From Escherichia phage Murica, in sequence record NC_041871.1: a stretch of 64,000 nt of DNA. One strand, 5' to 3'. Under the pieces are notes generated by a model that was not told the DNA's origin, did not search any database, and saw only the letters and a program-made list of their open reading frames with translations. This document shows positions 28,954 to 56,520 of the stretch, piece after piece. Within the stretch, counting starts at the first letter, position 1. Each line of letters opens with the position of its first letter. The position numbers and the translations under genes are program-made.

Positions 28954-28960
28954 AAAAAGG

Positions 28961-29057
28961 TGCTAGGTGATGGAATCGAACCACCTATGTATTCAACGAC
29001 TACCTCGTCTATTTTCAGGATTAAAAATCCTCGCCCTTGCCAAAGGGCTTACCTAGC
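28961..29057 (-). tRNA. atypical 97-nt tRNA-like element (anticodon unresolved, possibly UUU; very long variable region)
   Basis: perfect 7-bp acceptor pairing GCTAGGT/ACCTAGC, canonical T-arm GGTGG-TTCGATT-CCATC and D-arm, but 65 nt between; no encoded CCA. Confidence 0.45.
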
Positions 29058-32439: not shown

Positions 32440-32994
32440 TTACTCCCTGCTGTCAATATCAAAACTCATTGCAATACGGTATGCCTCTTCTAATGGTAAG
32501 AGTCTCCCCCACACATCCCAACCGACATCAAGCTGCCTGCCAAACAACTGTTGTGTGGTTCCGTGAGCATGACCGAACAGTTGGACTGATCCGTGAGGCT
32601 TTCTGTTCCACTTTGCAAACTGGTAATGGCTCATACAGATCAAATTCTTGTTGTGGCGAAGCTCGTAATAATCTACAACCTCATGACCGAACTCTTTCAT
32701 AATTCTGACAGTCGTCCTTGTGTCATGGTTGCCACGAACAAGAATAATATGTCCGTTCAACATATTTAGAATATCTGGAAGTAAGTTGTTGATATTCTTA
32801 TCATTAGTGCACGCAATATCTCCCAGGTGGAACACAGTGTCTGCAGGTGACACAACGGAGTTCCACTCGGTGATGATTCCCGCATTCATACTGTCAAGAT
32901 TGTGATCATATTGAGATCTGTGTTTTTGACATGAATCAAACTCCATGACCCGCTGGTGGAGAAAGTGCGTATCGCTTGTTACAAAGTATTTCAT
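32440..32994 (-). CDS. calcineurin-like metallophosphoesterase (putative polynucleotide 2',3'-phosphatase)
   Basis: motifs SDTHF, GDIACT and GNHD; ORF track 32440..33099 trimmed to ATG at 32992-32994 with GAGGAA RBS. Confidence 0.65.
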   Translation of the reverse strand: MKYFVTSDTHFLHQRVMEFDSCQKHRSQYDHNLDSMNAGIITEWNSVVSPADTVFHLGDIACTNDKNINNLLPDILNMLNGHIILVRGNHDTRTTVRIMKEFGHEVVDYYELRHNKNLICMSHYQFAKWNRKPHGSVQLFGHAHGTTQQLFGRQLDVGWDVWGRLLPLEEAYRIAMSFDIDSRE

Positions 32995-33001
32995 ACATTC
33001 C

Positions 33002-33412
33002 TCATTTAAGTTTAATGCAGTTTTTAAGCTGGCGTTCCATACGATCCACAACCTTGTCTGGAACATCATGAATGCTTTTATTACCGTGGCGGTTTTCAAC
33101 CACGATTACGGTATAACTATACCCATGACTGATTGCCATGTCAACATATTCCTGCACATGTTTTTCTTTTGTAAACGTATTACTTACCACGATACGGTCG
33201 TATCCCATACGCATCATATCTTCTACGTTATCTTTGCACCATTTTGCTGCGAGTGTTACTTTACTTGCATCCCAGTTGTAATTGCCGTCATCGTCATACC
33301 AAAACATGTCATTCTCAAAATGTGGATACAGACCTTCTAAAGATAGCGCATTTGCCAGTGTTGATTTGCCAGACCCTGGCAGACCACGCACGATATATAG
33401 CATTTTAGACAT
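33002..33412 (-). CDS. P-loop polynucleotide 5'-kinase-like protein
   Basis: Walker A GLPGSGKST at the N-terminus; ORF track 33002..33469 trimmed to ATG at 33410-33412 with GGAGGATTGCT RBS. Confidence 0.6.
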   Translation of the reverse strand: MSKMLYIVRGLPGSGKSTLANALSLEGLYPHFENDMFWYDDDGNYNWDASKVTLAAKWCKDNVEDMMRMGYDRIVVSNTFTKEKHVQEYVDMAISHGYSYTVIVVENRHGNKSIHDVPDKVVDRMERQLKNCIKLK

Positions 33413-33440
33413 AGCAATCCTCCGTTTTAATTTTAATGAT

Positions 33441-33469
33441 AGTATACCTAACTGTTTTGTTAATTTCAA
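33441..33469 (-). promoter_or_regulatory. minus-strand early promoter (TTGAAA-17-TATACT) for the kinase/phosphatase operon
   Basis: -10 TATACT is the complement of 33441-33446, -35 TTGAAA of 33464-33469; RBS and ATG follow. Confidence 0.5.
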
Positions 33470-33472
33470 GTG

Positions 33473-33501
33473 TTGACACTAGGTTATTTGTGTGGCAGGA
33501 T
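33473..33501 (+). promoter_or_regulatory. plus-strand early promoter (TTGACA-17-TGTGG-CAGGAT, extended -10-like)
   Basis: consensus -35 TTGACA at 33473-33478; TG-containing element before a weak -10; back-to-back with the minus promoter. Confidence 0.4.
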
Positions 33502-33530
33502 AGACTGACAAAATGACAAATGAGGAACGT

Positions 33531-34448
33531 ATGATGAAGTATTTTAATGCAGATGACCTAGTAGACAAAGGTCTTGTAACCAGTCGGTATTATCCAGATC
33601 TTGGATTAAAGATCTATAAATATGCCAGAAAAGTATTCTACAACGATCTGTGGCATTTGTCTCCGCGTTTACTGGAGTGCCGAGGTATTGTTGTTGGCAA
33701 TGAGGGGAATGTTGTGGCATGGCCTTTCACAAAAGTATTCAACTTAGGAGAAAACTCCACCAACCTACCGGACAGTAAACTTGTTACTGCGGTAGAGAAA
33801 AAGAACGGATTCCTCGGTGTGGTATCATCTCATAAAGGTGAACTATTGTTCTCAACAACCGGGTCTCTTGATTCCCCATATTGTAACCTCGCAAAAGAAA
33901 CCATCAGGGAGCAATGTGGTAATTTAGATCTTATCAAGAAGGTTATGGGCAATGAAAACATGACATTCATGTTTGAAATTTGCCACCCTTCAGATCCGCA
34001 TATTGTTCAGGAAGATCATGGCGCATATTTGATAGGTTGCAGATATAATGATTCTGGAATAATGCTACCAGAAGCAGCTTTAGATGGGATTGCCAAATAC
34101 CTTGGTGCAAAACGTCCTCACACTGTGCGTGAAATTCCGTTCAGCTATGCAAAAGAATTAGCTGCAGAAACAAGAGGTGAAGGGTATATGATTCGTAAGC
34201 CTTACTACCCTTATGATCTGCAGCTGAAGATCAAGTCTCCATACTATCTGGCACGGAAGGCAGTAATGAGGGGTAAAGCTTGGAAGATTTGGGATGATGA
34301 TATCTTTAAACGTGTTGACGAAGAGTTTTACGGTATGGTAAAATTTATTCGTAGCAACTATACAGAAGATGTGTGGAATTGCTTATTAGAGCAGGAGCGT
34401 CGTGAGATACTGGACTACTATTTCCACAACGAGGACTATATGCAATGA
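33531..34448 (+). CDS. RNA ligase, T4 RnlA (Rnl1)-like
   Basis: N-terminal pattern LLECRGIVV...WPFTKVFNLGEN recalled as matching T4 RNA ligase 1; KxNG nucleotidyl-transferase motif (EKKNGF); start chosen at ATGATG after GAGGAA (track start 33513). Confidence 0.65.
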   Translation: MMKYFNADDLVDKGLVTSRYYPDLGLKIYKYARKVFYNDLWHLSPRLLECRGIVVGNEGNVVAWPFTKVFNLGENSTNLPDSKLVTAVEKKNGFLGVVSSHKGELLFSTTGSLDSPYCNLAKETIREQCGNLDLIKKVMGNENMTFMFEICHPSDPHIVQEDHGAYLIGCRYNDSGIMLPEAALDGIAKYLGAKRPHTVREIPFSYAKELAAETRGEGYMIRKPYYPYDLQLKIKSPYYLARKAVMRGKAWKIWDDDIFKRVDEEFYGMVKFIRSNYTEDVWNCLLEQERREILDYYFHNEDYMQ

Positions 34449-34795
34449 AGAAGTGGATTGTGTGGCTGGATGATTTGAGAGATCCGTCAAATTATGGACT
34501 CCCAGACGCTATTTGGCTGAAGAATTCCTCAGAGTTTATGGATTTTATTAACGATAAGGGAAAGCTCTACAGACGCGTTTCTGAGTGGCATATGGACAAC
34601 GACCTAGGAGAAGTATTCGAAGGATACGATTGCCTATCCATGTTGGAGGAAAAATTTGTATTCGGTAAGCCTCCAGTGATTGACAACGTGAAGATTTTCG
34701 TACATACTTCTAATCCATCGGCAGCTCGTAAATTTATGCTTGCTGCTGACTCATTCAAGAAGTTTGGAATAGAGATTAAACAAAACATCTACTGA
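34445..34795 (+). CDS. hypothetical small protein (possible receiver/flavodoxin-like fold)
   Basis: 116 aa, coupled to the ligase stop; pattern WLDD...D-DLG...HTS loosely resembles a CheY-like receiver domain. Confidence 0.35.
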   Translation: MKKWIVWLDDLRDPSNYGLPDAIWLKNSSEFMDFINDKGKLYRRVSEWHMDNDLGEVFEGYDCLSMLEEKFVFGKPPVIDNVKIFVHTSNPSAARKFMLAADSFKKFGIEIKQNIY

Positions 34796-34803
34796 GGACA
34801 CTT

Positions 34804-35565
34804 ATGCGACGACTGATTATTATCTCCGGTGCTGGTTTGAGCGCTGAATCTGGTATTCCCACTTTCCGATCTGGTAGCACTGCAATGTGGGAGAATTTCA
34901 GCATCGATGAGGTGTGCAACATCCACACCTTTGCCAAGAACTACTATAAGGTGCATGACTTTTACAATGCACGTCGTGTAGCTCTGGGCAGTGTTGATCC
35001 TAACCTTGCACATCTTCGGATCGCTGAGTGGTATTCCCGCTGGTCTGGTCGTGTGATCAACCTTACCACCAATGTAGATGATTTGCTGGAGCGTGCTGGT
35101 GTAAAACATGAAGATATTTTACATGTCCACGGGTATTTGCCTGAAATCACCTACGAAGATGCTGAAGGTAACGATGTAATTAAAAATATCGGATACACGG
35201 AGGTAGATACAGGCAAGTATACCTGGGTTAAGCCTAATGTAGTGTTCTTCGGTGAGGTTGCTCCTAAGTATACAGACATGTATGACCTGTTGACATCTCT
35301 CACAAGCAATGATATGGTGATCCTGGTGGGTTGTTCTAACACAGTTATTAATTTTAACTGGGAATTGTTTCCTGCTACTTGTAAAGGCACAAAACTGCTG
35401 ATTGTAAACAAGTATGACTCGCAGAGTGCAGATGGAAGTGGCATTTCACGTAGCGACCTTTATCAATATGAGGATCGCGGGATCCCTGTATGGTTTAACG
35501 GTGCTGTTGACGCTTTCTCTGATAAAGCATTTATTGAAACTGTAGAAAACTTTATGGAACTTTAA
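34804..35565 (+). CDS. Sir2-family (sirtuin-like) NAD-dependent enzyme lacking a Zn-ribbon
   Basis: GAGLSAESGIPTFR NAD-binding motif, TTNVDDLLERAG and HVHG catalytic His motif; no CxxC pairs. Confidence 0.8.
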   Translation: MRRLIIISGAGLSAESGIPTFRSGSTAMWENFSIDEVCNIHTFAKNYYKVHDFYNARRVALGSVDPNLAHLRIAEWYSRWSGRVINLTTNVDDLLERAGVKHEDILHVHGYLPEITYEDAEGNDVIKNIGYTEVDTGKYTWVKPNVVFFGEVAPKYTDMYDLLTSLTSNDMVILVGCSNTVINFNWELFPATCKGTKLLIVNKYDSQSADGSGISRSDLYQYEDRGIPVWFNGAVDAFSDKAFIETVENFMEL

Positions 35566-35578
35566 AAGGAGACCTTTA

Positions 35579-36292
35579 ATGCTGAATACTAAACTGATCG
35601 ACAACCTGGAAAAACTGTCTCAGCCTGAAAACTACCTTTGGTCTGCCAACTGGGTGGAAAACTGGAACCGTGTGGCAGCTAAAGTGAAAAAATCATACAC
35701 ACCATTCGAATTACAGCTTAGCTTCATTGAGGAAGAGTTCAATGAGGTTTTGGAAGAGCTGGAGAAAGGTGATGGTGGAGATCACCTGTTAAAAGAGGCC
35801 TGCGATCTTCACGTTGTCACAAGTTATGCCGCCTATCTTGTTAATGACAATCACGAAAAGTGGTCAAACCTGTTTGATAATCCACGAGGTCTTAAGTTCA
35901 AGATCGGTGAGTTCTATGATACACTGATCGCTGCGAAAAACACATCCAAGCAAAGAGCGTCAGCTTACCGCTTAGCGGAGTTGTCAACAGCTTTGCTGTT
36001 CCAGCTTCGCGGCGATGTGTGTGGGATGATGCGGAAGGTTCTCAAATCTAATGACAGTAAGTTTGCACGGATCAACCATCTACGGCATTCACACGGTGCC
36101 AGTGCAGATATGCCTGCTGAACAACTCATCGAGTTGGAGATTAAAGATCTTGAGCGTCGTTTTGGTGGTCGCTACGAAGGTTTTGTTGCTAAGGAAGAGT
36201 TCTACAACGGTAATAAAGTTATCATATTCCTTGACAGTAAAGGTAAGATCATGAAGCCTTCGAGCTTCAAGGATGTAACAGAGTATATTTGA
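35579..36292 (+). CDS. putative MazG-like nucleotide pyrophosphohydrolase
   Basis: 237 aa; EEEFNEVLEELEK...D acidic helix pattern typical of all-alpha NTP pyrophosphatases; AAGGAG RBS. Confidence 0.4.
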   Translation: MLNTKLIDNLEKLSQPENYLWSANWVENWNRVAAKVKKSYTPFELQLSFIEEEFNEVLEELEKGDGGDHLLKEACDLHVVTSYAAYLVNDNHEKWSNLFDNPRGLKFKIGEFYDTLIAAKNTSKQRASAYRLAELSTALLFQLRGDVCGMMRKVLKSNDSKFARINHLRHSHGASADMPAEQLIELEIKDLERRFGGRYEGFVAKEEFYNGNKVIIFLDSKGKIMKPSSFKDVTEYI

Positions 36293-36298
36293 CAACAT

Positions 36299-36322
36299 AG
36301 CCGGGTAATCCCGGCTTTACTT
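36299..36322 (+). terminator. terminator-like hairpin AGCCGGG-TAAT-CCCGGCT followed by TTACTTATTAT
   Basis: perfect 7-bp stem directly after the stop codon of the preceding gene. Confidence 0.45.
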
Positions 36323-36354
36323 ATTATGGAAAGTATGCAGCGAGGTAGTTAGTT

Positions 36355-36663
36355 ATGTACAAGCATTCCAGAGATCTTGAAAAAGATGCTGTGTTTGGCG
36401 ACCAGATGAAGGAGCTGATCAAACTTATAGGTAGAATGGAAGATAAGTTTGACACTAAAATCTACATCGATAGCAAGATCTTCAACCACAAAATATGGAC
36501 AAATGTGTGTGTTGGGCTACATGGTGATAAAGATATTGTAAATTTGGTTGTAATAAAGTTCATAGTGTGGCAGAATAAGACTATACGTTATTCCGATCCA
36601 CACTTACTTGTTTATCCTATAAAAGACCTACTACAGAAGGAGGACTGCAATGCCGTTATTTAA
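36355..36663 (+). CDS. hypothetical protein
   Basis: 102-aa ORF with RBS. Confidence 0.4.
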   Translation: MYKHSRDLEKDAVFGDQMKELIKLIGRMEDKFDTKIYIDSKIFNHKIWTNVCVGLHGDKDIVNLVVIKFIVWQNKTIRYSDPHLLVYPIKDLLQKEDCNAVI

Positions 36664-36919
36664 TCTTGCTAAACCTGTAGAAGCCCACCAGTTTGACGGA
36701 AGCTCTTCATCAGTATCTGATCTGCAACGGTGGATTGATACAGGTGTGTTTACATCGTCACCTGTTCGGACCAGAGATCTTCGTCGCATGTGTGAGCTTG
36801 TCGAGCCTTTTGGTAACCTTGTCTTGTACCAGGGAGATTGGCTAGTTGACTTTATGGGAGACTGGTTGGTAATGAGTAAAGAAGAGATGTTTAAAATTTT
36901 TAAGGAAGAGGCCGAGTAA
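36650..36919 (+). CDS. hypothetical protein
   Basis: 89-aa ORF with AAGGAGG RBS. Confidence 0.4.
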   Translation: MPLFNLAKPVEAHQFDGSSSSVSDLQRWIDTGVFTSSPVRTRDLRRMCELVEPFGNLVLYQGDWLVDFMGDWLVMSKEEMFKIFKEEAE

Positions 36920-38202
36920 TGCATCAAATCAAAACAACACTGTACGCACTGAACAAAGATGGCAGCTACCAACAGTGGAAAGTATTCACTGATGGCGAAA
37001 AGGTTATCGTAGAGTTTGGCAAGCTTGACGGTAAATTGCAGTACAAAGAGACGGTATGCACACCTAAGAACGTAGGTCGTGCCAATGAGACTACAGCTGA
37101 GCAACAGGCCGAGCTTGAGGCTATCAGCAAGTGGGAAAAACAAGTCCGTCTGGGGTATGTTGAAAACATGGAAGATTGCGAGCAGGGTGTTGACCTTTTA
37201 CCCATGCTGGTGCATGACTACCTGAAGCGTGGCAAGGCACTTAAATTACCTTGCTGGATCTTGCGTAAGTTAGATGGCCTTCGTCTGCTTGTTGTTTTCC
37301 AAAATGGTGAGCCTAAATTTATTTCCCGTGGTAATAAGTCCTACCCTATTCAAGGAAAGCTTTTAGAGCAACTTCGTTCTTTCCATTCTACCACTGGGAT
37401 TAAACAACTTGATGGGGAACTATACATTCATGGTCTTCCTTTGCAGAAAATAGTGTCTCTTGCTAAACGGTGGCGCACACAGGAAGAGATTCAGGCCGAG
37501 ATCGATAAAGACTATGAGGCAGATAAAAAACGCCGTCATGCCGCAATTAAGGCAGGCTTATCAACATACAAAAACTTCAACAAGGTAGATATTCCTGTCG
37601 ATGTTGAGCCTGTTCGTGATGATTTGCGTTACGGTGGGTACTGTAGCTACGATCTGGAGTATCACATTTTTGATATTCCTAGCGACAAGGTGTGGTGGGA
37701 TCCAGAAACAGAGTCTGGACGCTGCAAGGATCTTATGGATGCAGAGGATACCGTTACCACTCTGATGCTTGATCATATCAAGGTTGTTGACGCAGAGCTT
37801 GCGTACACAGTTGATCATTGCGAAGAATCTGTTGGTATATTCATGTCCGAAGGATATGAAGGTACTATCATGCGTAATTTCTGCGGTAAATACGAGTACG
37901 GTCAGCGAACATCTGAAGCATTGAAATGGAAAAAGTTCAACGACGCAGAGGTGAAAGTTATTGACGTTGAGAAAGATAAGAATGATGAAGGTGTTCTTAT
38001 CTGTGTTGACAAGGAAGGTGTTGTTGTTAAAATGAAGATGAAAGGCACGCACGAGGAGCGTAGCTATGACAGGATGCAGGAAATGATCGGCAAGTTTGTC
38101 ACCTTCAAATACCAAGCAAGGACAGAAGACAACAACTACCAATTCCCTGTCGGTATCTGCGTCCGAAATGTTAACCCAGACACTTGGGAGGTGCTTGAAT
38201 GA
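36919..38202 (+). CDS. ATP-dependent DNA ligase
   Basis: motif I KLDGLR, motif III DGELYI, motif IV EGTIM, motif V LKWKK in correct order. Confidence 0.7.
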   Translation: MHQIKTTLYALNKDGSYQQWKVFTDGEKVIVEFGKLDGKLQYKETVCTPKNVGRANETTAEQQAELEAISKWEKQVRLGYVENMEDCEQGVDLLPMLVHDYLKRGKALKLPCWILRKLDGLRLLVVFQNGEPKFISRGNKSYPIQGKLLEQLRSFHSTTGIKQLDGELYIHGLPLQKIVSLAKRWRTQEEIQAEIDKDYEADKKRRHAAIKAGLSTYKNFNKVDIPVDVEPVRDDLRYGGYCSYDLEYHIFDIPSDKVWWDPETESGRCKDLMDAEDTVTTLMLDHIKVVDAELAYTVDHCEESVGIFMSEGYEGTIMRNFCGKYEYGQRTSEALKWKKFNDAEVKVIDVEKDKNDEGVLICVDKEGVVVKMKMKGTHEERSYDRMQEMIGKFVTFKYQARTEDNNYQFPVGICVRNVNPDTWEVLE

Positions 38203-55731: not shown

Positions 55732-56520
55732 ATGGGTCGAGCTAAAGAAACAAAACGCATGCGTGATGAAGCTAGAGAGGCTCGCAAATCTGATCGCCTG
55801 CGTAAGGCTGCTGAGAAATTTGCTGACGAAAGAGAGCACACCGCTCCAGCTCTCCGACCAATGAATAAGAAGCAGCAAAAGTATCTTGATTATCTAGGGT
55901 CACGTAAGATTATTATTGTAAACGGTGTGTTTGGATCCGGTAAGACATTCATGGCATCTGCATATGCAGGTGATCTTCTGCGTAAGAACGAGATTGATAA
56001 GATTATTGTTGCACGTCCTTACGTTCAGACAGGAAAGACTTCAGGATTTAAACCTGGAAATGCAATGCAGAAACTGTGGCCCTATCTTCGAAGCATGATG
56101 GACACGATTTGTCGTCGTGTTGGCAAAGGTGCTTTTGCCGCAATGCTGGGAGACGGTCAGAACAGCCGTATCGAGATTTGTGAAGTTGAAAGCATTCGTG
56201 GTCGTAGTTTCGATGAGCGATGCTTTGTCCTGATTGACGAGGCACAGCAAACTAACCCTGAAGAAATGTTGTCAATTATCACAAGGATCTCTGATCAAGC
56301 CACCCTTGTAATTATGGGTGATAATAGCCAACGTGACATCCCTGGTAAATCTGGCCTTGCATGGGTGACGGATTTCTTTACTCGTCATCCAGATCCTGAG
56401 GTTGGAATGATCAGCTTTGATAGTCCAGACGATGTCGTTCGTTCCGGGTTGGGTCGTCAGATCGCACTCAATCTTATTGATGATCGTGCAAATCATATTT
56501 GGACCCCTGTTTCCGAGTAA
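55732..56520 (+). CDS. phoH: PhoH-like ATPase
   Basis: Walker A GVFGSGKTF, Walker B LIDEAQ; AAGGAG RBS. Confidence 0.8.
   Translation: MGRAKETKRMRDEAREARKSDRLRKAAEKFADEREHTAPALRPMNKKQQKYLDYLGSRKIIIVNGVFGSGKTFMASAYAGDLLRKNEIDKIIVARPYVQTGKTSGFKPGNAMQKLWPYLRSMMDTICRRVGKGAFAAMLGDGQNSRIEICEVESIRGRSFDERCFVLIDEAQQTNPEEMLSIITRISDQATLVIMGDNSQRDIPGKSGLAWVTDFFTRHPDPEVGMISFDSPDDVVRSGLGRQIALNLIDDRANHIWTPVSE

What the first reader, a model, noticed from the sequence alone, without database searches (positions are those of the whole stretch)
34445..36292. Early-gene Sir2-like enzyme flanked by a small receiver-like protein and a MazG-like protein: candidate NAD/nucleotide-targeting counter-defence module
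Seen directly: the Sir2 ORF (34804..35565) keeps the sirtuin NAD-pocket motifs (GAGLSAESGIPTFR, HVHG) but has no Cys pairs where cellular sirtuins carry the Zn-ribbon. It sits immediately after a 116-aa ORF with a receiver/flavodoxin-like pattern and before a MazG-like ORF, all just downstream of the first rightward promoter. Established knowledge: many bacterial anti-phage systems act by NAD+ depletion or use nucleotide second messengers, and phages counter them with NAD-salvage or signal-degrading enzymes. Inference: this trio may form a phage module that consumes, modifies or regenerates NAD-derived molecules, or ADP-ribosylates host targets, early in infection. I cannot assign it to a described system from sequence alone.
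Basis: partly seen in the sequence, partly recalled or inferred. Interest (0 to 1): 0.85.

Follow-up and report, generated by a model that had tools for sequence, protein, structure and literature searches.

The report
Phage RNA-repair cassette with sirtuin
The three genes are real, but they are the right-hand half of a six-gene RNA break-repair cassette of rV5-like E. coli phages whose odd zinc-less sirtuin was already described and predicted in 2022 to clean RNA ends using NAD+, a prediction that is still untested.

Summary
ORFs 34445-34795, 34804-35565 and 35579-36292 encode a cREC receiver-fold protein, a Zn-less class-III-like sirtuin and a MazG-superfamily protein.

The trio is not the functional unit. 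The window is a Vequintavirus (99.8% identical to vB_EcoM-Pr121LW). The genes sit in a divergent cassette: metallophosphoesterase and P-loop polynucleotide kinase leftward; Rnl1 RNA ligase, cREC, Sir2 and MazG-like rightward, ending in a hairpin.

Iyer et al. 2022 (PMC9503650) describe exactly this neighbourhood, with phage V5 as prototype. They predict that the sirtuin removes RNA 2'-phosphates as Tpt1/KptA does, and that cREC opens cyclic phosphates.

My comparisons reproduce their three contexts and refine them:
- cREC tracks RNA ligase and tRNA genes.
- The MazG-like gene tracks DNA ligase.
- Sir2 is a movable add-on, about 33 kb away in phi92-like phages.

Transposon data for Bas54 (93-100% identical proteins) call five of the six genes non-essential and cREC intermediate in E. 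coli K-12. None is depleted on clinical strain CFE311.

No biochemistry exists, and a plain CobB-like deacylase remains a serious rival. Counter-defence against RNA-cleaving toxins fits better. Already known as a prediction; interest is modest.

The parts
32440..32994 (-). Calcineurin-like metallophosphoesterase, the candidate 2',3'-cyclic/3'-phosphate end-healing enzyme. The longest ORF runs to 33099, but orthologues start at the ATG at 32994.
   Evidence: Pfam Metallophos_2 27.8 bits and Metallophos 26.4 bits; PHROG 547 'phosphoesterase' E = 1.9e-52. The DxH, GD, GNHD and GHxH motifs are visible in the translation. The FFH2 and Bas54 orthologues are annotated as 555 bp.
33002..33412 (-). P-loop (AAA_33) polynucleotide-kinase-like protein, the candidate 5'-OH kinase. 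The longest ORF starts at 33469; orthologues start at 33412.
   Evidence: Pfam AAA_33 E = 1.7e-10; PHROG 2071 E = 1.8e-58 and PHROG 505 'polynucleotide kinase' E = 7.6e-10. Annotated 'polynucleotide kinase' in Bas54.
33413..33512 (.). Divergent intergenic region between the leftward kinase/phosphoesterase pair and the rightward Rnl1-cREC-Sir2-MazG-like row. It holds a TTGACA at 33472-33477 with only a weak -10 element.
   Evidence: Sequence read directly. The scan found no + strand promoter of 9/12 or better here, and overall counts equal chance. The GC skew changes sign at about 33-34 kb.
33513..34448 (+). T4 Rnl1-type ATP-dependent RNA ligase, the first gene of the rightward unit. Its stop codon overlaps the cREC start codon (ATGA).
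   Evidence: Pfam RNA_lig_T4_1 55.5 bits (cut-off 28.3); PHROG 562 E = 1.2e-65. The overlap is seen in the coordinates.
34445..34795 (+). cREC (cyclic-phosphate processing receiver domain), a stand-alone 116-aa protein. The acidic pocket D9/D10/D51/D53 plus T88/S89 and K96 is conserved.
34804..35565 (+). Zn-less sirtuin of a phage-specific clade derived from class III (CobB/SIRT5-like) sirtuins.
   Evidence: Pfam SIR2 98.2 bits. PDB phmmer top hit is CobB 1s5p at E = 3e-21. The AF2 model has pLDDT 89.7, and Foldseek's top hits are CobB structures at E about 5e-18. Clade invariants include G9-A10-G11, S16, R22, Y54, R57, N90, D92, H109 and F148-F149-E151. The Zn cysteines are absent.
35579..36292 (+). 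MazG/HisE-superfamily (all-alpha NTP pyrophosphohydrolase-like) protein with a conserved C-terminal extension. It is the last gene of the unit.
   Evidence: PHROG 671 E = 1.5e-21. E52, E53, E56, D76 and SNDSK 157-161 are invariant. The profile's best PDB hits are MazG 3cra and PRA-PH 1yvw, at E about 0.1. The KpS8 orthologue scores 24.1 bits against PF01503, above the 21.3 cut-off.
36299..36316 (+). Terminator-like GC-rich hairpin (7-bp stem, 4-nt loop) 7 nt after the MazG-like stop codon. It probably marks the end of the Rnl1-cREC-Sir2-MazG-like transcription unit.
   Evidence: Terminator scan hit. RNA fold gives -15 kcal/mol, z = -3.2 against shuffles. Function as a terminator is inferred.

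Best explanation
The three ORFs are the downstream part of a six-gene RNA break-repair ('heal and seal') cassette typical of rV5-like phages. A metallophosphoesterase and a P-loop polynucleotide kinase are transcribed leftward. An Rnl1 RNA ligase, cREC, a Zn-less sirtuin and a MazG-like pyrophosphohydrolase are transcribed rightward as one tightly packed unit that ends in a hairpin.

The cassette most likely serves as conditional counter-defence against host endoribonucleases, such as anticodon nucleases and toxin RNases. These cut tRNA or other RNA and leave 2',3'-cyclic phosphate and 5'-OH ends.

Proposed steps, all inferred and none shown:
1. The kinase phosphorylates the 5'-OH.
2. cREC, using receiver-type aspartate chemistry, and/or the metallophosphoesterase open the 2',3'-cyclic phosphate.
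3. Rnl1 seals the break.
4. Where opening leaves a 2'-phosphate, the sirtuin uses NAD+ to remove it. [quoted passage not shown] This is the Tpt1/KptA reaction performed on an unrelated fold.
5. cREC, and possibly the MazG-like enzyme standing in for the Nudix partner seen in jumbo phages, then degrade that by-product.

This is the model of Iyer et al. 2022. My probabilities are about 0.8 that the cassette is an RNA repair unit, about 0.5 that Sir2 and cREC work within it, and about 0.3-0.35 that Sir2 is specifically a 2'-phosphotransferase.
For: Shown by domain assignment: Rnl1, kinase, phosphoesterase, cREC and Sir2.

Tight packing: Rnl1 and cREC overlap by 4 nt, the other two gaps are 8 and 13 nt, and a stable hairpin follows the last gene.

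The Sir2 clade sits beside RNA-end-processing enzymes in several lineages with different partners:
- Vequintavirus, Mydovirus and Henunavirus: Rnl1, kinase and metallophosphoesterase, with or without cREC.
- T5, Sds2 and Erwinia phage KEY: HAD_SAK_2, the 'Swiss Army Knife RNA repair' HAD, in two different gene orders.
- Eneladusvirus: a 2H protein, a Nudt16-like Nudix-cREC fusion and PIN-PhoH.
- A 140-kb metagenomic phage: Metallophos and HAD_PNKP.

cREC independently tracks RNA ligase in phi92-like phages and sits inside a tRNA gene array in Hongcheonvirus.

A 7-tRNA cluster lies about 3 kb from the cassette.

Literature:
- The same neighbourhood and mechanism are proposed in PMC9503650 section 3.7.3 and PMC7824862.
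- The Tpt1 two-step chemistry and the fungal 2'-phosphate ligation pathway are summarised in PMC11417386 and PMC10946426.
- The T-even PseT orthologue is flagged as conditionally important on a clinical E. coli isolate in the HIDEN-SEQ preprint. This is a precedent for RNA repair genes acting as host-specific counter-defence.
Against: - There is no biochemical or genetic evidence for any step.
- Kinase, metallophosphoesterase and Rnl1 already suffice for a T4-type repair that never creates a 2'-phosphate. The Sir2 step is therefore not required by the cassette's logic.
- Sir2 is unlinked from the cassette in phi92-like phages, at about 33 kb. It has no recognisable RNA-repair neighbour in a 121-kb phage or in Mt1B1_P17.
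- Synteny among Vequintavirinae and Stephanstirmvirinae may simply be inherited.
- I made no statistical test against the background frequency of such genes in phage early regions.
- The protein keeps every hallmark of a class III lysine deacylase, including the Y54-x-x-R57 pair.
- The clade is acidic, with median pI 5.1. A free-standing RNA-binding enzyme would not be expected to be acidic.
- Bas54 transposon data show that five of the six cassette genes are non-essential in K-12 and cREC is intermediate. None is depleted on clinical strain CFE311. No phenotype has yet been tied to the cassette.
Confidence: 0.5

Rival explanations
1. The Sir2 is an ordinary CobB-like NAD+-dependent protein lysine deacylase (deacetylase or desuccinylase). 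It would reprogramme host or phage proteins after infection, and its place in the RNA-repair cassette would be incidental or regulatory, for example de-acylating the repair enzymes, tRNA synthetases or RNases. cREC and the MazG-like protein would act independently of it.
For: - The closest sequence and structure relatives are E. coli CobB, SIRT5 and Sir2-Af1.
- All NAD-pocket and catalytic residues are invariant, as are the FGE loop and the class III Y-x-x-R pair. From my own knowledge (Du et al. 2011), that pair binds the succinyl carboxylate in SIRT5 and CobB.
- Sir2 occurs away from RNA-repair genes in phi92-like phages and in a 121-kb phage.
- The clade has an acidic pI similar to CobB.
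- Public annotations uniformly say 'NAD-dependent deacetylase', but these are unverified name transfers.
Against: - The Zn-binding cysteines that canonical sirtuins need for a stable small domain are lost across the clade.
- The clade is phage-specific and carries its own invariant residues.
- It recurs next to four unrelated kinds of RNA-end phosphoesterase (cREC, HAD_SAK_2, 2H, Metallophos/HAD_PNKP) in unrelated phage families.
- The host already supplies CobB.
Confidence: 0.27
2. The trio counters NAD+-depleting or nucleotide-signalling defences such as Thoeris, CBASS, type III CRISPR, DSR and SIR2-HerA. cREC would cleave cyclic nucleotide or cyclic-ADPR signals, the MazG-like enzyme would hydrolyse signalling or alarmone nucleotides, and Sir2 would process NAD-derived molecules.
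For: - In Eneladusvirus the gene two positions upstream of Sir2 matches Pfam Acb1 (anti-CBASS 2H phosphodiesterase) at 59 bits. NMNAT and NAMPT lie just upstream of it.
- NAMPT and PRPP synthetase genes abut the cassette in Mydovirus and Henunavirus.
- Iyer et al. list cREC among domains predicted to process ADPr derivatives.
Against: - The window has no NAD-salvage genes.
- None of the three proteins matches a PADLOC model, and the Sir2 is of the canonical PF02146 type, not the defence-type SIR2_2.
- A sirtuin consumes NAD+ rather than restoring it.
- The trio is not conserved as a unit.
- cREC's most constant partners are RNA ligase and tRNA genes.
- Insertions in the Bas54 orthologues are not depleted on clinical strain CFE311, while bona fide anti-defence genes are.
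Confidence: 0.08
3. The Sir2 acts as an ADP-ribosyltransferase on macromolecules rather than as a phosphate remover. It might cap RNA 5'- or 3'-phosphate ends with ADP-ribose to protect or mark broken RNAs, or it might ADP-ribosylate host proteins, in the way that phage T4 Alt and Mod do.
For: - Some sirtuins are ADP-ribosyltransferases, and Iyer et al. invoke that activity for phage sirtuins.
- The Eneladusvirus partner is a Nudt16-like Nudix. From my own knowledge, that family trims ADP-ribose and cap structures on RNA and protein.
- The Zn-less small domain implies an altered substrate-binding surface.
Against: - No macrodomain or ARH eraser accompanies the gene.
- The acyl-lysine-type catalytic set is fully retained.
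- There are no experimental data.
Confidence: 0.1

Closest known systems
Type 2 'sirtuin-centred NAD+-utilising RNA-repair' gene neighbourhood of Iyer, Burroughs, Anantharaman & Aravind 2022 (Viruses 14:1977, section 3.7.3; prototypes Escherichia phage V5 and Proteus phage Mydo)
   Same: The component list is identical: sirtuin, T4-like RNA ligase, cREC, nucleotide kinase, MazG-superfamily pyrophosphatase and calcineurin-like phosphoesterase. All six are found here. The window belongs to the same genus as phage V5.
   Different: Nothing structural differs. My additions:
- The MazG-like gene is adjacent to Sir2 only in Vequintavirus.
- Sir2 is unlinked in phi92-like phages.
- cREC is missing in Henunavirus.
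- The cassette is dispensable in Bas54 under the tested conditions.
Phage T4 Pnkp + Rnl1 tRNA repair pathway, which counters the PrrC anticodon nuclease
   Same: It has an Rnl1-type ligase and a P-loop 5'-kinase. It is a phage-encoded accessory function, non-essential in E. coli K-12.
   Different: The end-healing phosphatase is not the HAD domain fused to the kinase. It is instead a separate calcineurin-type metallophosphoesterase plus cREC. T4 has no sirtuin or MazG-like partner.
Fungal/plant Trl1 + Tpt1 (bacterial KptA) 2'-phosphate tRNA ligation pathway
   Same: The proposed logic is the same. [quoted passage not shown]
   Different: Two of the steps would be carried out by unrelated folds: cREC (receiver fold) in place of the 2H phosphodiesterase, and a sirtuin in place of the Tpt1/KptA ART-fold enzyme. 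No Tpt1 homologue is present. The activity is only predicted.
E. coli CobB / human SIRT5 (class III sirtuin lysine deacylases)
   Same: They are the best sequence and structure matches, at 26-27% identity and TM about 0.75. The GAGxS, TxN[VI]D, HxHG, FGE and Y-x-x-R motifs are all kept.
   Different: The four Zn-binding cysteines are lost, although the three strands of the small domain are kept. The clade is restricted to phages, has its own invariant residues and has extra C-terminal helices.
Clostridium thermocellum-type bacterial Pnkp/Hen1 RNA repair (kinase + calcineurin-type phosphoesterase + ligase)
   Same: It combines a P-loop kinase, a binuclear metallophosphoesterase and an ATP-dependent ligase for RNA end healing and sealing (own knowledge; domains shown).
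   Different: Here the three activities are separate genes, the ligase is Rnl1-type, and there is no Hen1 methyltransferase. cREC, Sir2 and the MazG-like protein are added.

Membership tests
Sirtuin / SIR2 family (Pfam PF02146) | Profile match above the curated threshold, and a Rossmann-type sirtuin fold | tested here: met
   98.2 bits against a cut-off of 24. The AF2 model matches CobB, Sir2Af and SIRT5 with Foldseek probability 1.00 and TM 0.72-0.75.
Sirtuin / SIR2 family (Pfam PF02146) | NAD+ pocket and catalytic residues: GAGxS, the conserved Arg of TFR, N and D of TQN[IV]D, and the catalytic His of HG | tested here: met
   G9-A10-G11, S16, R22, N90, D92 and H109-G110 are invariant in 44 clade members. 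They align to the CobB motifs.
Sirtuin / SIR2 family (Pfam PF02146) | Zn-ribbon small domain with four coordinating cysteines | tested here: not met
   There is no Cys at the CobB Zn positions. The HxHG...FFGE segment could be located in 92 homologues, and none has three or more Cys there, against four in CobB. The three strands of the small domain are still predicted.
Class III sirtuins (CobB/SIRT5 deacylases) | Y-x-x-R pair that binds acidic acyl groups, and closest similarity to CobB/SIRT5 | tested here: met
   FYNARR is present, with Y54 and R57 invariant. CobB and SIRT5 are the top PDB hits. The role of the pair is from my own knowledge.
Class III sirtuins (CobB/SIRT5 deacylases) | NAD+-dependent lysine deacylase activity | not testable with these tools
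   This needs an enzyme assay. No publication on this phage clade was found.
cREC (Pfam PF20274, cyclic-phosphate processing receiver domain) | Profile match above threshold | tested here: met
   54.5 bits against a cut-off of 27. All 55 homologue clusters carry PF20274.
cREC (Pfam PF20274, cyclic-phosphate processing receiver domain) | Receiver (CheY-like) fold that retains the acidic active-site residues | tested here: met
cREC (Pfam PF20274, cyclic-phosphate processing receiver domain) | Occurs with RNA-repair or NAD/ADPr genes and never with a histidine kinase or an output domain | tested here: met
   It is a stand-alone 116-aa protein next to Rnl1 here and in Mydovirus and phi92-like phages. 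It is fused to Nudix in Eneladusvirus and sits in a tRNA array in Hongcheonvirus. No histidine kinase was seen in any neighbourhood examined. The rest of the window was not scanned for one.
cREC (Pfam PF20274, cyclic-phosphate processing receiver domain) | [quoted passage not shown] | not testable with these tools
   This is a prediction only. The authors call it 'experimentally uncharacterized'.
MazG / HisE all-alpha NTP pyrophosphohydrolase superfamily | EExxE ... (E/D)xxD metal-binding helices | tested here: met
   E52, E53, E56 and D76 are invariant in 13 family members. The stretch aligns to the catalytic helices of E. coli MazG 3cra.
MazG / HisE all-alpha NTP pyrophosphohydrolase superfamily | Significant profile match to a curated family | tested here: inconclusive
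   The window protein scores 13.7 bits against PF01503, below the 21.3 cut-off. The KpS8 orthologue scores 24.1 bits, above it. PHROG 671 gives E = 1.5e-21. The PDB profile hits are only at E about 0.1.
Iyer et al. 2022 type 2 sirtuin RNA-repair neighbourhood | [quoted passage not shown] | tested here: met
   All six lie within 32440-36292. The definition was read.
Tpt1 / KptA RNA 2'-phosphotransferase family | Homology to the Tpt1/KptA ART-type fold | tested here: not met
   No Tpt1/KptA family was among the Pfam or NCBIfam matches of any cassette protein. The candidate enzyme has a sirtuin fold. Any relationship would be one of function, not of family.
Tpt1 / KptA RNA 2'-phosphotransferase family | [quoted passage not shown] | not testable with these tools
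   This needs biochemistry.
T4 Pnkp-Rnl1 tRNA repair system | Rnl1-type ligase plus a bifunctional kinase/HAD-phosphatase Pnkp | tested here: not met
   Rnl1 and a P-loop kinase are present. The kinase is only 136 aa and has no HAD domain, and the phosphatase role would fall to a separate metallophosphoesterase or to cREC.
Defence-type SIR2 NADases (ThsA, DSR, SIR2-HerA and similar) | Match to SIR2_2 or to PADLOC defence models, with sensor or partner domains | tested here: not met
   No PADLOC hit. SIR2_2 PF13289 scores 13.2 bits, below the 24.5 cut-off. It is a single-domain protein.
Phage NAD+ salvage / reconstitution modules (NAMPT, NMNAT, Prs) | NAMPT, NMNAT or PRPP-synthetase genes present in the locus | tested here: not met
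   tblastn with NAMPT, Prs and NMNAT probes from KpS8 and pEa_SNUABM_12 finds nothing in the 64-kb window. The probes do hit next to the cassette in Mydovirus, Henunavirus and Eneladusvirus.

The most novel reading that the evidence does not exclude
The phage sirtuin is a genuine NAD+-dependent RNA 2'-phosphotransferase, that is, a non-homologous functional twin of Tpt1/KptA and a new reaction class for the sirtuin fold. cREC is a new kind of cyclic phosphodiesterase that uses receiver-domain aspartyl-phosphate chemistry. Together with Rnl1 and the kinase they would rebuild, from unrelated folds, the fungal/plant '2'-phosphate' tRNA ligation pathway inside a phage, as a counter to tRNA-cleaving immunity. 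This has been predicted (Iyer et al. 2022) but never demonstrated.
Probability: 0.3. Interest if true: 0.7.

Novelty: already known. Interest (0 to 1): 0.3.

Why it matters
If the predicted chemistry is right, sirtuins would gain a nucleic-acid repair activity, and receiver domains would gain a catalytic role outside signalling. rV5-like, T5-like and jumbo phages (about 1,000 sequenced genomes carry this sirtuin clade) would then have an NAD+-dependent route to undo tRNA cleavage by host immune nucleases. This bears on phage-therapy host range, because Vequintavirinae are therapy candidates.

As it stands, the finding adds nothing conceptually beyond the 2022 comparative-genomics description. 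Its practical value is that a saturated Bas54 transposon library now exists. That makes the hypothesis directly testable on hosts carrying tRNA-targeting defences.

Tried and rejected
- **Defence-type SIR2 NADase or a known defence component:** rejected. There is no PADLOC hit and the SIR2_2 score is below threshold.
- **NAD-salvage module in the window:** rejected. tblastn with NAMPT, Prs and NMNAT probes found nothing.
- **The trio as a conserved three-gene unit:** rejected by the neighbourhoods in KpS8, Hena1, EF1-1, nieznany, T5, Sds2, KEY, D483 and pEa_SNUABM_12.
- **Hidden, divergent cREC copies next to Sir2 in T5, KEY, Hena1, D483 or the metagenomic phages:** none found with a family HMM.
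- **A promoter just upstream of the trio:** the scan is at chance level, and the unit starts with the RNA ligase.
- **Sequence searches of cREC against the PDB:** only noise, at E of 0.1 or worse. The fold search was needed.
- **The MazG-like protein alone against the PDB:** nothing. The family profile gives only marginal MazG and PRA-PH hits.
- **The search for related loci with cREC in viral contigs:** it returned only one near-identical locus, so I switched to tblastn against annotated phages.
- **Charge as a test of RNA binding:** the Sir2 clade is acidic. I treat this as weak evidence only.
- **Literature searches for experiments on phage sirtuins, cREC or a sirtuin 2'-phosphotransferase:** none found.
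- **The Bas54 comparison with clinical strain CFE303:** it could not be used. The sheet labelled CFE303 carries the CFE311 command line and numbers.

Full report
**What is there.** The window is an rV5-like myovirus genome segment. The region 33400-37000 is 99.8% identical to Escherichia phage vB_EcoM-Pr121LW and 96-98% identical to over a hundred Vequintavirus records.

**Sir2.** The Sir2 ORF (34804-35565) scores 98 bits against Pfam SIR2. Its nearest solved relatives are the class III sirtuins E. coli CobB, SIRT5 and Sir2-Af1, at E about 1e-21. An AlphaFold model built from 44 homologues is confident (pLDDT 89.7, pTM 0.88). It superposes best on CobB (Foldseek E about 5e-18, TM 0.72-0.75, 26-27% identity).

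The NAD pocket and catalytic residues are invariant across the clade: GAG, S16, R22, N90, D92, H109 and the FFGE loop. So is the class III Y54-x-x-R57 pair. CobB has four Cys between HxHG and FGE. That segment could be located in 92 of the 120 phage homologues, and none of them has three or more Cys there. The three strands of the small domain are still predicted.

**MazG-like protein.** The 237-aa ORF (35579-36292) belongs to the MazG/HisE all-alpha NTP pyrophosphohydrolase superfamily on weaker evidence:
- PHROG 671 scores E = 1.5e-21.
- EExxE...D is invariant.
- The family profile's best PDB hits are MazG and PRA-PH, at E about 0.1 and on the catalytic helices.
- The KpS8 orthologue passes the Pfam threshold, although this protein itself does not.

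**The real unit is larger than the trio.**
- Immediately upstream on the same strand, and overlapping cREC by 4 nt, is a T4 Rnl1-type RNA ligase at 33513-34448 (Pfam 55.5 bits; PHROG 562 at 1e-65).
- Across a 100-bp divergent gap lie a P-loop polynucleotide-kinase-like gene (33002-33412) and a calcineurin-type metallophosphoesterase (32440-32994).
- The four rightward genes are separated by -4, 8 and 13 nt. They are followed 7 nt after the last stop codon by a stable GC hairpin (-15 kcal/mol, z = -3.2).
- A cluster of seven tRNA genes lies about 3 kb to the left.

The promoter claim could not be verified. Consensus hits are at chance level (17 against 14.1 +/- 3.8), and the divergent gap has only a lone TTGACA.

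**Comparative genomics.** tblastn finds the Sir2 clade in 986 phage records and cREC in 355. I examined neighbourhoods across the range of divergence:

| Lineage | Arrangement |
|---|---|
| Mydovirus KpS8 | phosphoesterase ... Rnl1-cREC-kinase-x-Sir2-DNA ligase; MazG-like 2.4 kb further on |
| Henunavirus Hena1 | phosphoesterase-x-Rnl1-kinase ... Sir2-x-DNA ligase ... MazG-like; no cREC, even by HMM |
| Phapecoctavirus EF1-1 | cREC-x-phosphoesterase-Rnl1-kinase ... DNA ligase ... MazG-like; Sir2 about 33 kb away |
| Phapecoctavirus nieznany | keeps cREC, phosphoesterase, DNA ligase and MazG-like; lacks ligase and kinase |
| T5, Sds2, Erwinia phage KEY | Sir2 one or two small genes from HAD_SAK_2 ('Swiss Army Knife RNA repair' HAD), in two different orders |
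| Eneladusvirus (jumbo) | NMNAT, NAMPT, a 2H protein matching Pfam Acb1, then Sir2, a Nudt16-like Nudix-cREC fusion and PIN-PhoH |
| 140-kb metagenomic phage | Metallophos and HAD_PNKP nearby |
| 121-kb phage and Mt1B1_P17 | nothing recognisable nearby |
| T5-like Hongcheonvirus | cREC sits inside the tRNA gene array |

In short:
- cREC tracks RNA ligase and tRNA genes.
- The MazG-like gene tracks the DNA ligase.
- Sir2 is a mobile add-on that is repeatedly, though not always, parked next to RNA-end phosphoesterases of four unrelated folds.

I did not compute a background expectation for such adjacency. The Vequintavirinae and Stephanstirmvirinae cases may also share ancestry. The independent support therefore comes mainly from the T5-like and Eneladusvirus contexts.

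**Prior description.** This is not new. Iyer, Burroughs, Anantharaman and Aravind (Viruses 2022, PMC9503650, section 3.7.3) list three sirtuin-centred neighbourhoods. [quoted passage not shown] They propose that the sirtuin acts like KptA/Tpt1 to remove 2'-phosphates. [quoted passage not shown] They state that it is experimentally uncharacterised. Seven full-text searches found no biochemical or genetic study of this sirtuin clade or of cREC.

**Experimental data that do exist.** The HIDEN-SEQ preprint (doi 10.1101/2025.11.20.689424) gives a saturated transposon map of Bas54 (phage MaxBurger, MZ501093). Its cassette proteins are 93-100% identical to those of the window.

| Bas54 gene | TA sites hit | Call in K-12 | log2FC, K-12 vs CFE311 (q) |
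|---|---|---|---|
| MazG-like (0206) | 35/40 | non-essential | +0.17 (1.0) |
| sirtuin (0207) | 48/51 | non-essential | +0.13 (1.0) |
| cREC (0208) | 16/21 | intermediate | +0.32 (1.0) |
| RNA ligase (0209) | 56/60 | non-essential | +0.43 (0.89) |
| kinase (0210) | 33/36 | non-essential | +0.31 (1.0) |
| phosphoesterase (0211) | 26/27 | non-essential | +0.40 (0.75) |

In the competition of K-12 against clinical strain CFE311, none of the six is depleted. By contrast, the validated anti-defence genes bas54_0063 and bas54_0140 fall by log2 -7.2 and -5.5.

The sheet labelled CFE303 repeats the CFE311 command line and numbers, so I could not assess that strain. In the same study the T-even PseT orthologue is highlighted as conditionally important on a clinical isolate. 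That shows how a repair gene can be silent in K-12 yet matter elsewhere.

**Mechanism and rivals.** The best-supported reading is that the cassette is a conditional RNA heal-and-seal system aimed at host RNases that leave 2',3'-cyclic phosphate and 5'-OH ends. Sir2 and cREC would provide an NAD+-dependent branch.

The chemistry is plausible by analogy. In both sirtuins and Tpt1 an oxygen nucleophile of the substrate attacks C1'' of NAD+. The ADP-ribose 2''-OH then attacks the substrate's electrophilic centre (the Tpt1 mechanism is summarised in PMC11417386; the sirtuin part is my own knowledge). None of these steps has been shown.

Against this reading:
- Kinase, phosphoesterase and Rnl1 already suffice for a T4-type repair.
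- Sir2 is unlinked in phi92-like phages.
- Every deacylase hallmark is retained.
- The clade is acidic, with median pI 5.1.

The last has some support from NAD-salvage genes and an Acb1-like 2H protein near the module in other genera. But the window has no such genes, there is no PADLOC match, and there is no fitness signal.

**Verdict.** The object is a known, computationally described neighbourhood, of which this phage group is the named prototype. Novelty: already known. Interest: 0.3. What remains open is whether a sirtuin really performs RNA 2'-phosphate removal, and that question is now easy to test.

Noticed in passing
window 28959-29057 (- strand): A 97-99-nt tRNA-like element lies inside the tRNA cluster, between tRNA-Thr and tRNA-Ser. 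ARAGORN calls it 'tRNA-???' with a 4-base anticodon. Rfam tRNA scores 35.5 bits, above the 29-bit threshold. It is not annotated in the FFH2 record, which lists six tRNAs. It could be an intron- or insert-bearing tRNA, or a decayed one.
   Followed up: partly
L003 1-2133 (KpS8); L006 1-2357 (Hena1); L008 2812-5978 (pEa_SNUABM_12): NAD-salvage genes sit directly beside the Sir2/RNA-repair block in other genera: NAMPT + PRPP synthetase in the first two, and NMNAT/ADPRase + NAMPT in the third. They are absent from this 64-kb window. This could mean an NAD supply for an NAD-consuming repair step, or an independent anti-depletion function.
   Followed up: partly
L008 6281-6727 (Erwinia phage pEa_SNUABM_12): The 2H-family gene two positions upstream of Sir2 matches Pfam 'Anti-CBASS protein Acb1' at 59.3 bits, where the cut-off is 27. 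The jumbo-phage version of the module may therefore also touch cyclic-oligonucleotide signalling.
   Followed up: no
L012 4992-5336 (Pectobacterium phage DU_PP_V): A cREC homologue (HMM E = 2e-21) is embedded in the middle of a large tRNA gene array in a T5-like phage, with no RNA ligase nearby.
   Followed up: partly
window 36355-36663 and 36650-36919 (+ strand): Two small conserved ORFs of unknown function (PHROG 7684 and PHROG 14585) lie between the MazG-like gene and the DNA ligase. Their homologues sit at different positions in Mydovirus and Henunavirus. Both are non-essential in Bas54.
   Followed up: no
window 32440-33469 (- strand): The mechanically longest ORFs for the phosphoesterase (start 33099) and the kinase (start 33469) overlap by 98 nt. 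Orthologue annotations use later ATG starts (32994 and 33412), which remove the overlap.
   Followed up: yes
phage collection records MG065653, MG065654, MG065666, MG065676 and others: About 18-25 records named 'Campylobacter phage' are 97-100% identical to this E. coli rV5-like sequence. Host mislabelling or contamination in those deposits is likely.
   Followed up: no
L009 (CAKLQH020000011.1, 'Acinetobacter phage MD-2021a'): The cobB hit on this record is flanked by msbA, gcvH, sstT and an appY-like regulator. It looks like a bacterial chromosomal contig filed in the phage collection, and its Sir2 is an ordinary cellular CobB.
   Followed up: no
HIDEN-SEQ preprint, Extended Data Table 8, sheets Data S6 and S7: The sheet titled K-12 vs CFE303 carries the same command line (BW vs 311) and the same numbers as the CFE311 sheet. 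The CFE303 comparison for Bas54 appears to be missing or duplicated in the deposited file.
   Followed up: partly
window about 33000-34000: The GC skew flips from negative to positive at the divergent gene boundary. This matches the switch in coding strand rather than indicating a replication origin.
   Followed up: no
window 55906-56379: A PhoH-like ATPase segment was detected by tblastn with the Eneladusvirus PIN-PhoH protein (29% identity, E = 3e-13). PhoH genes also neighbour Sir2 in T5-like phages.
   Followed up: no
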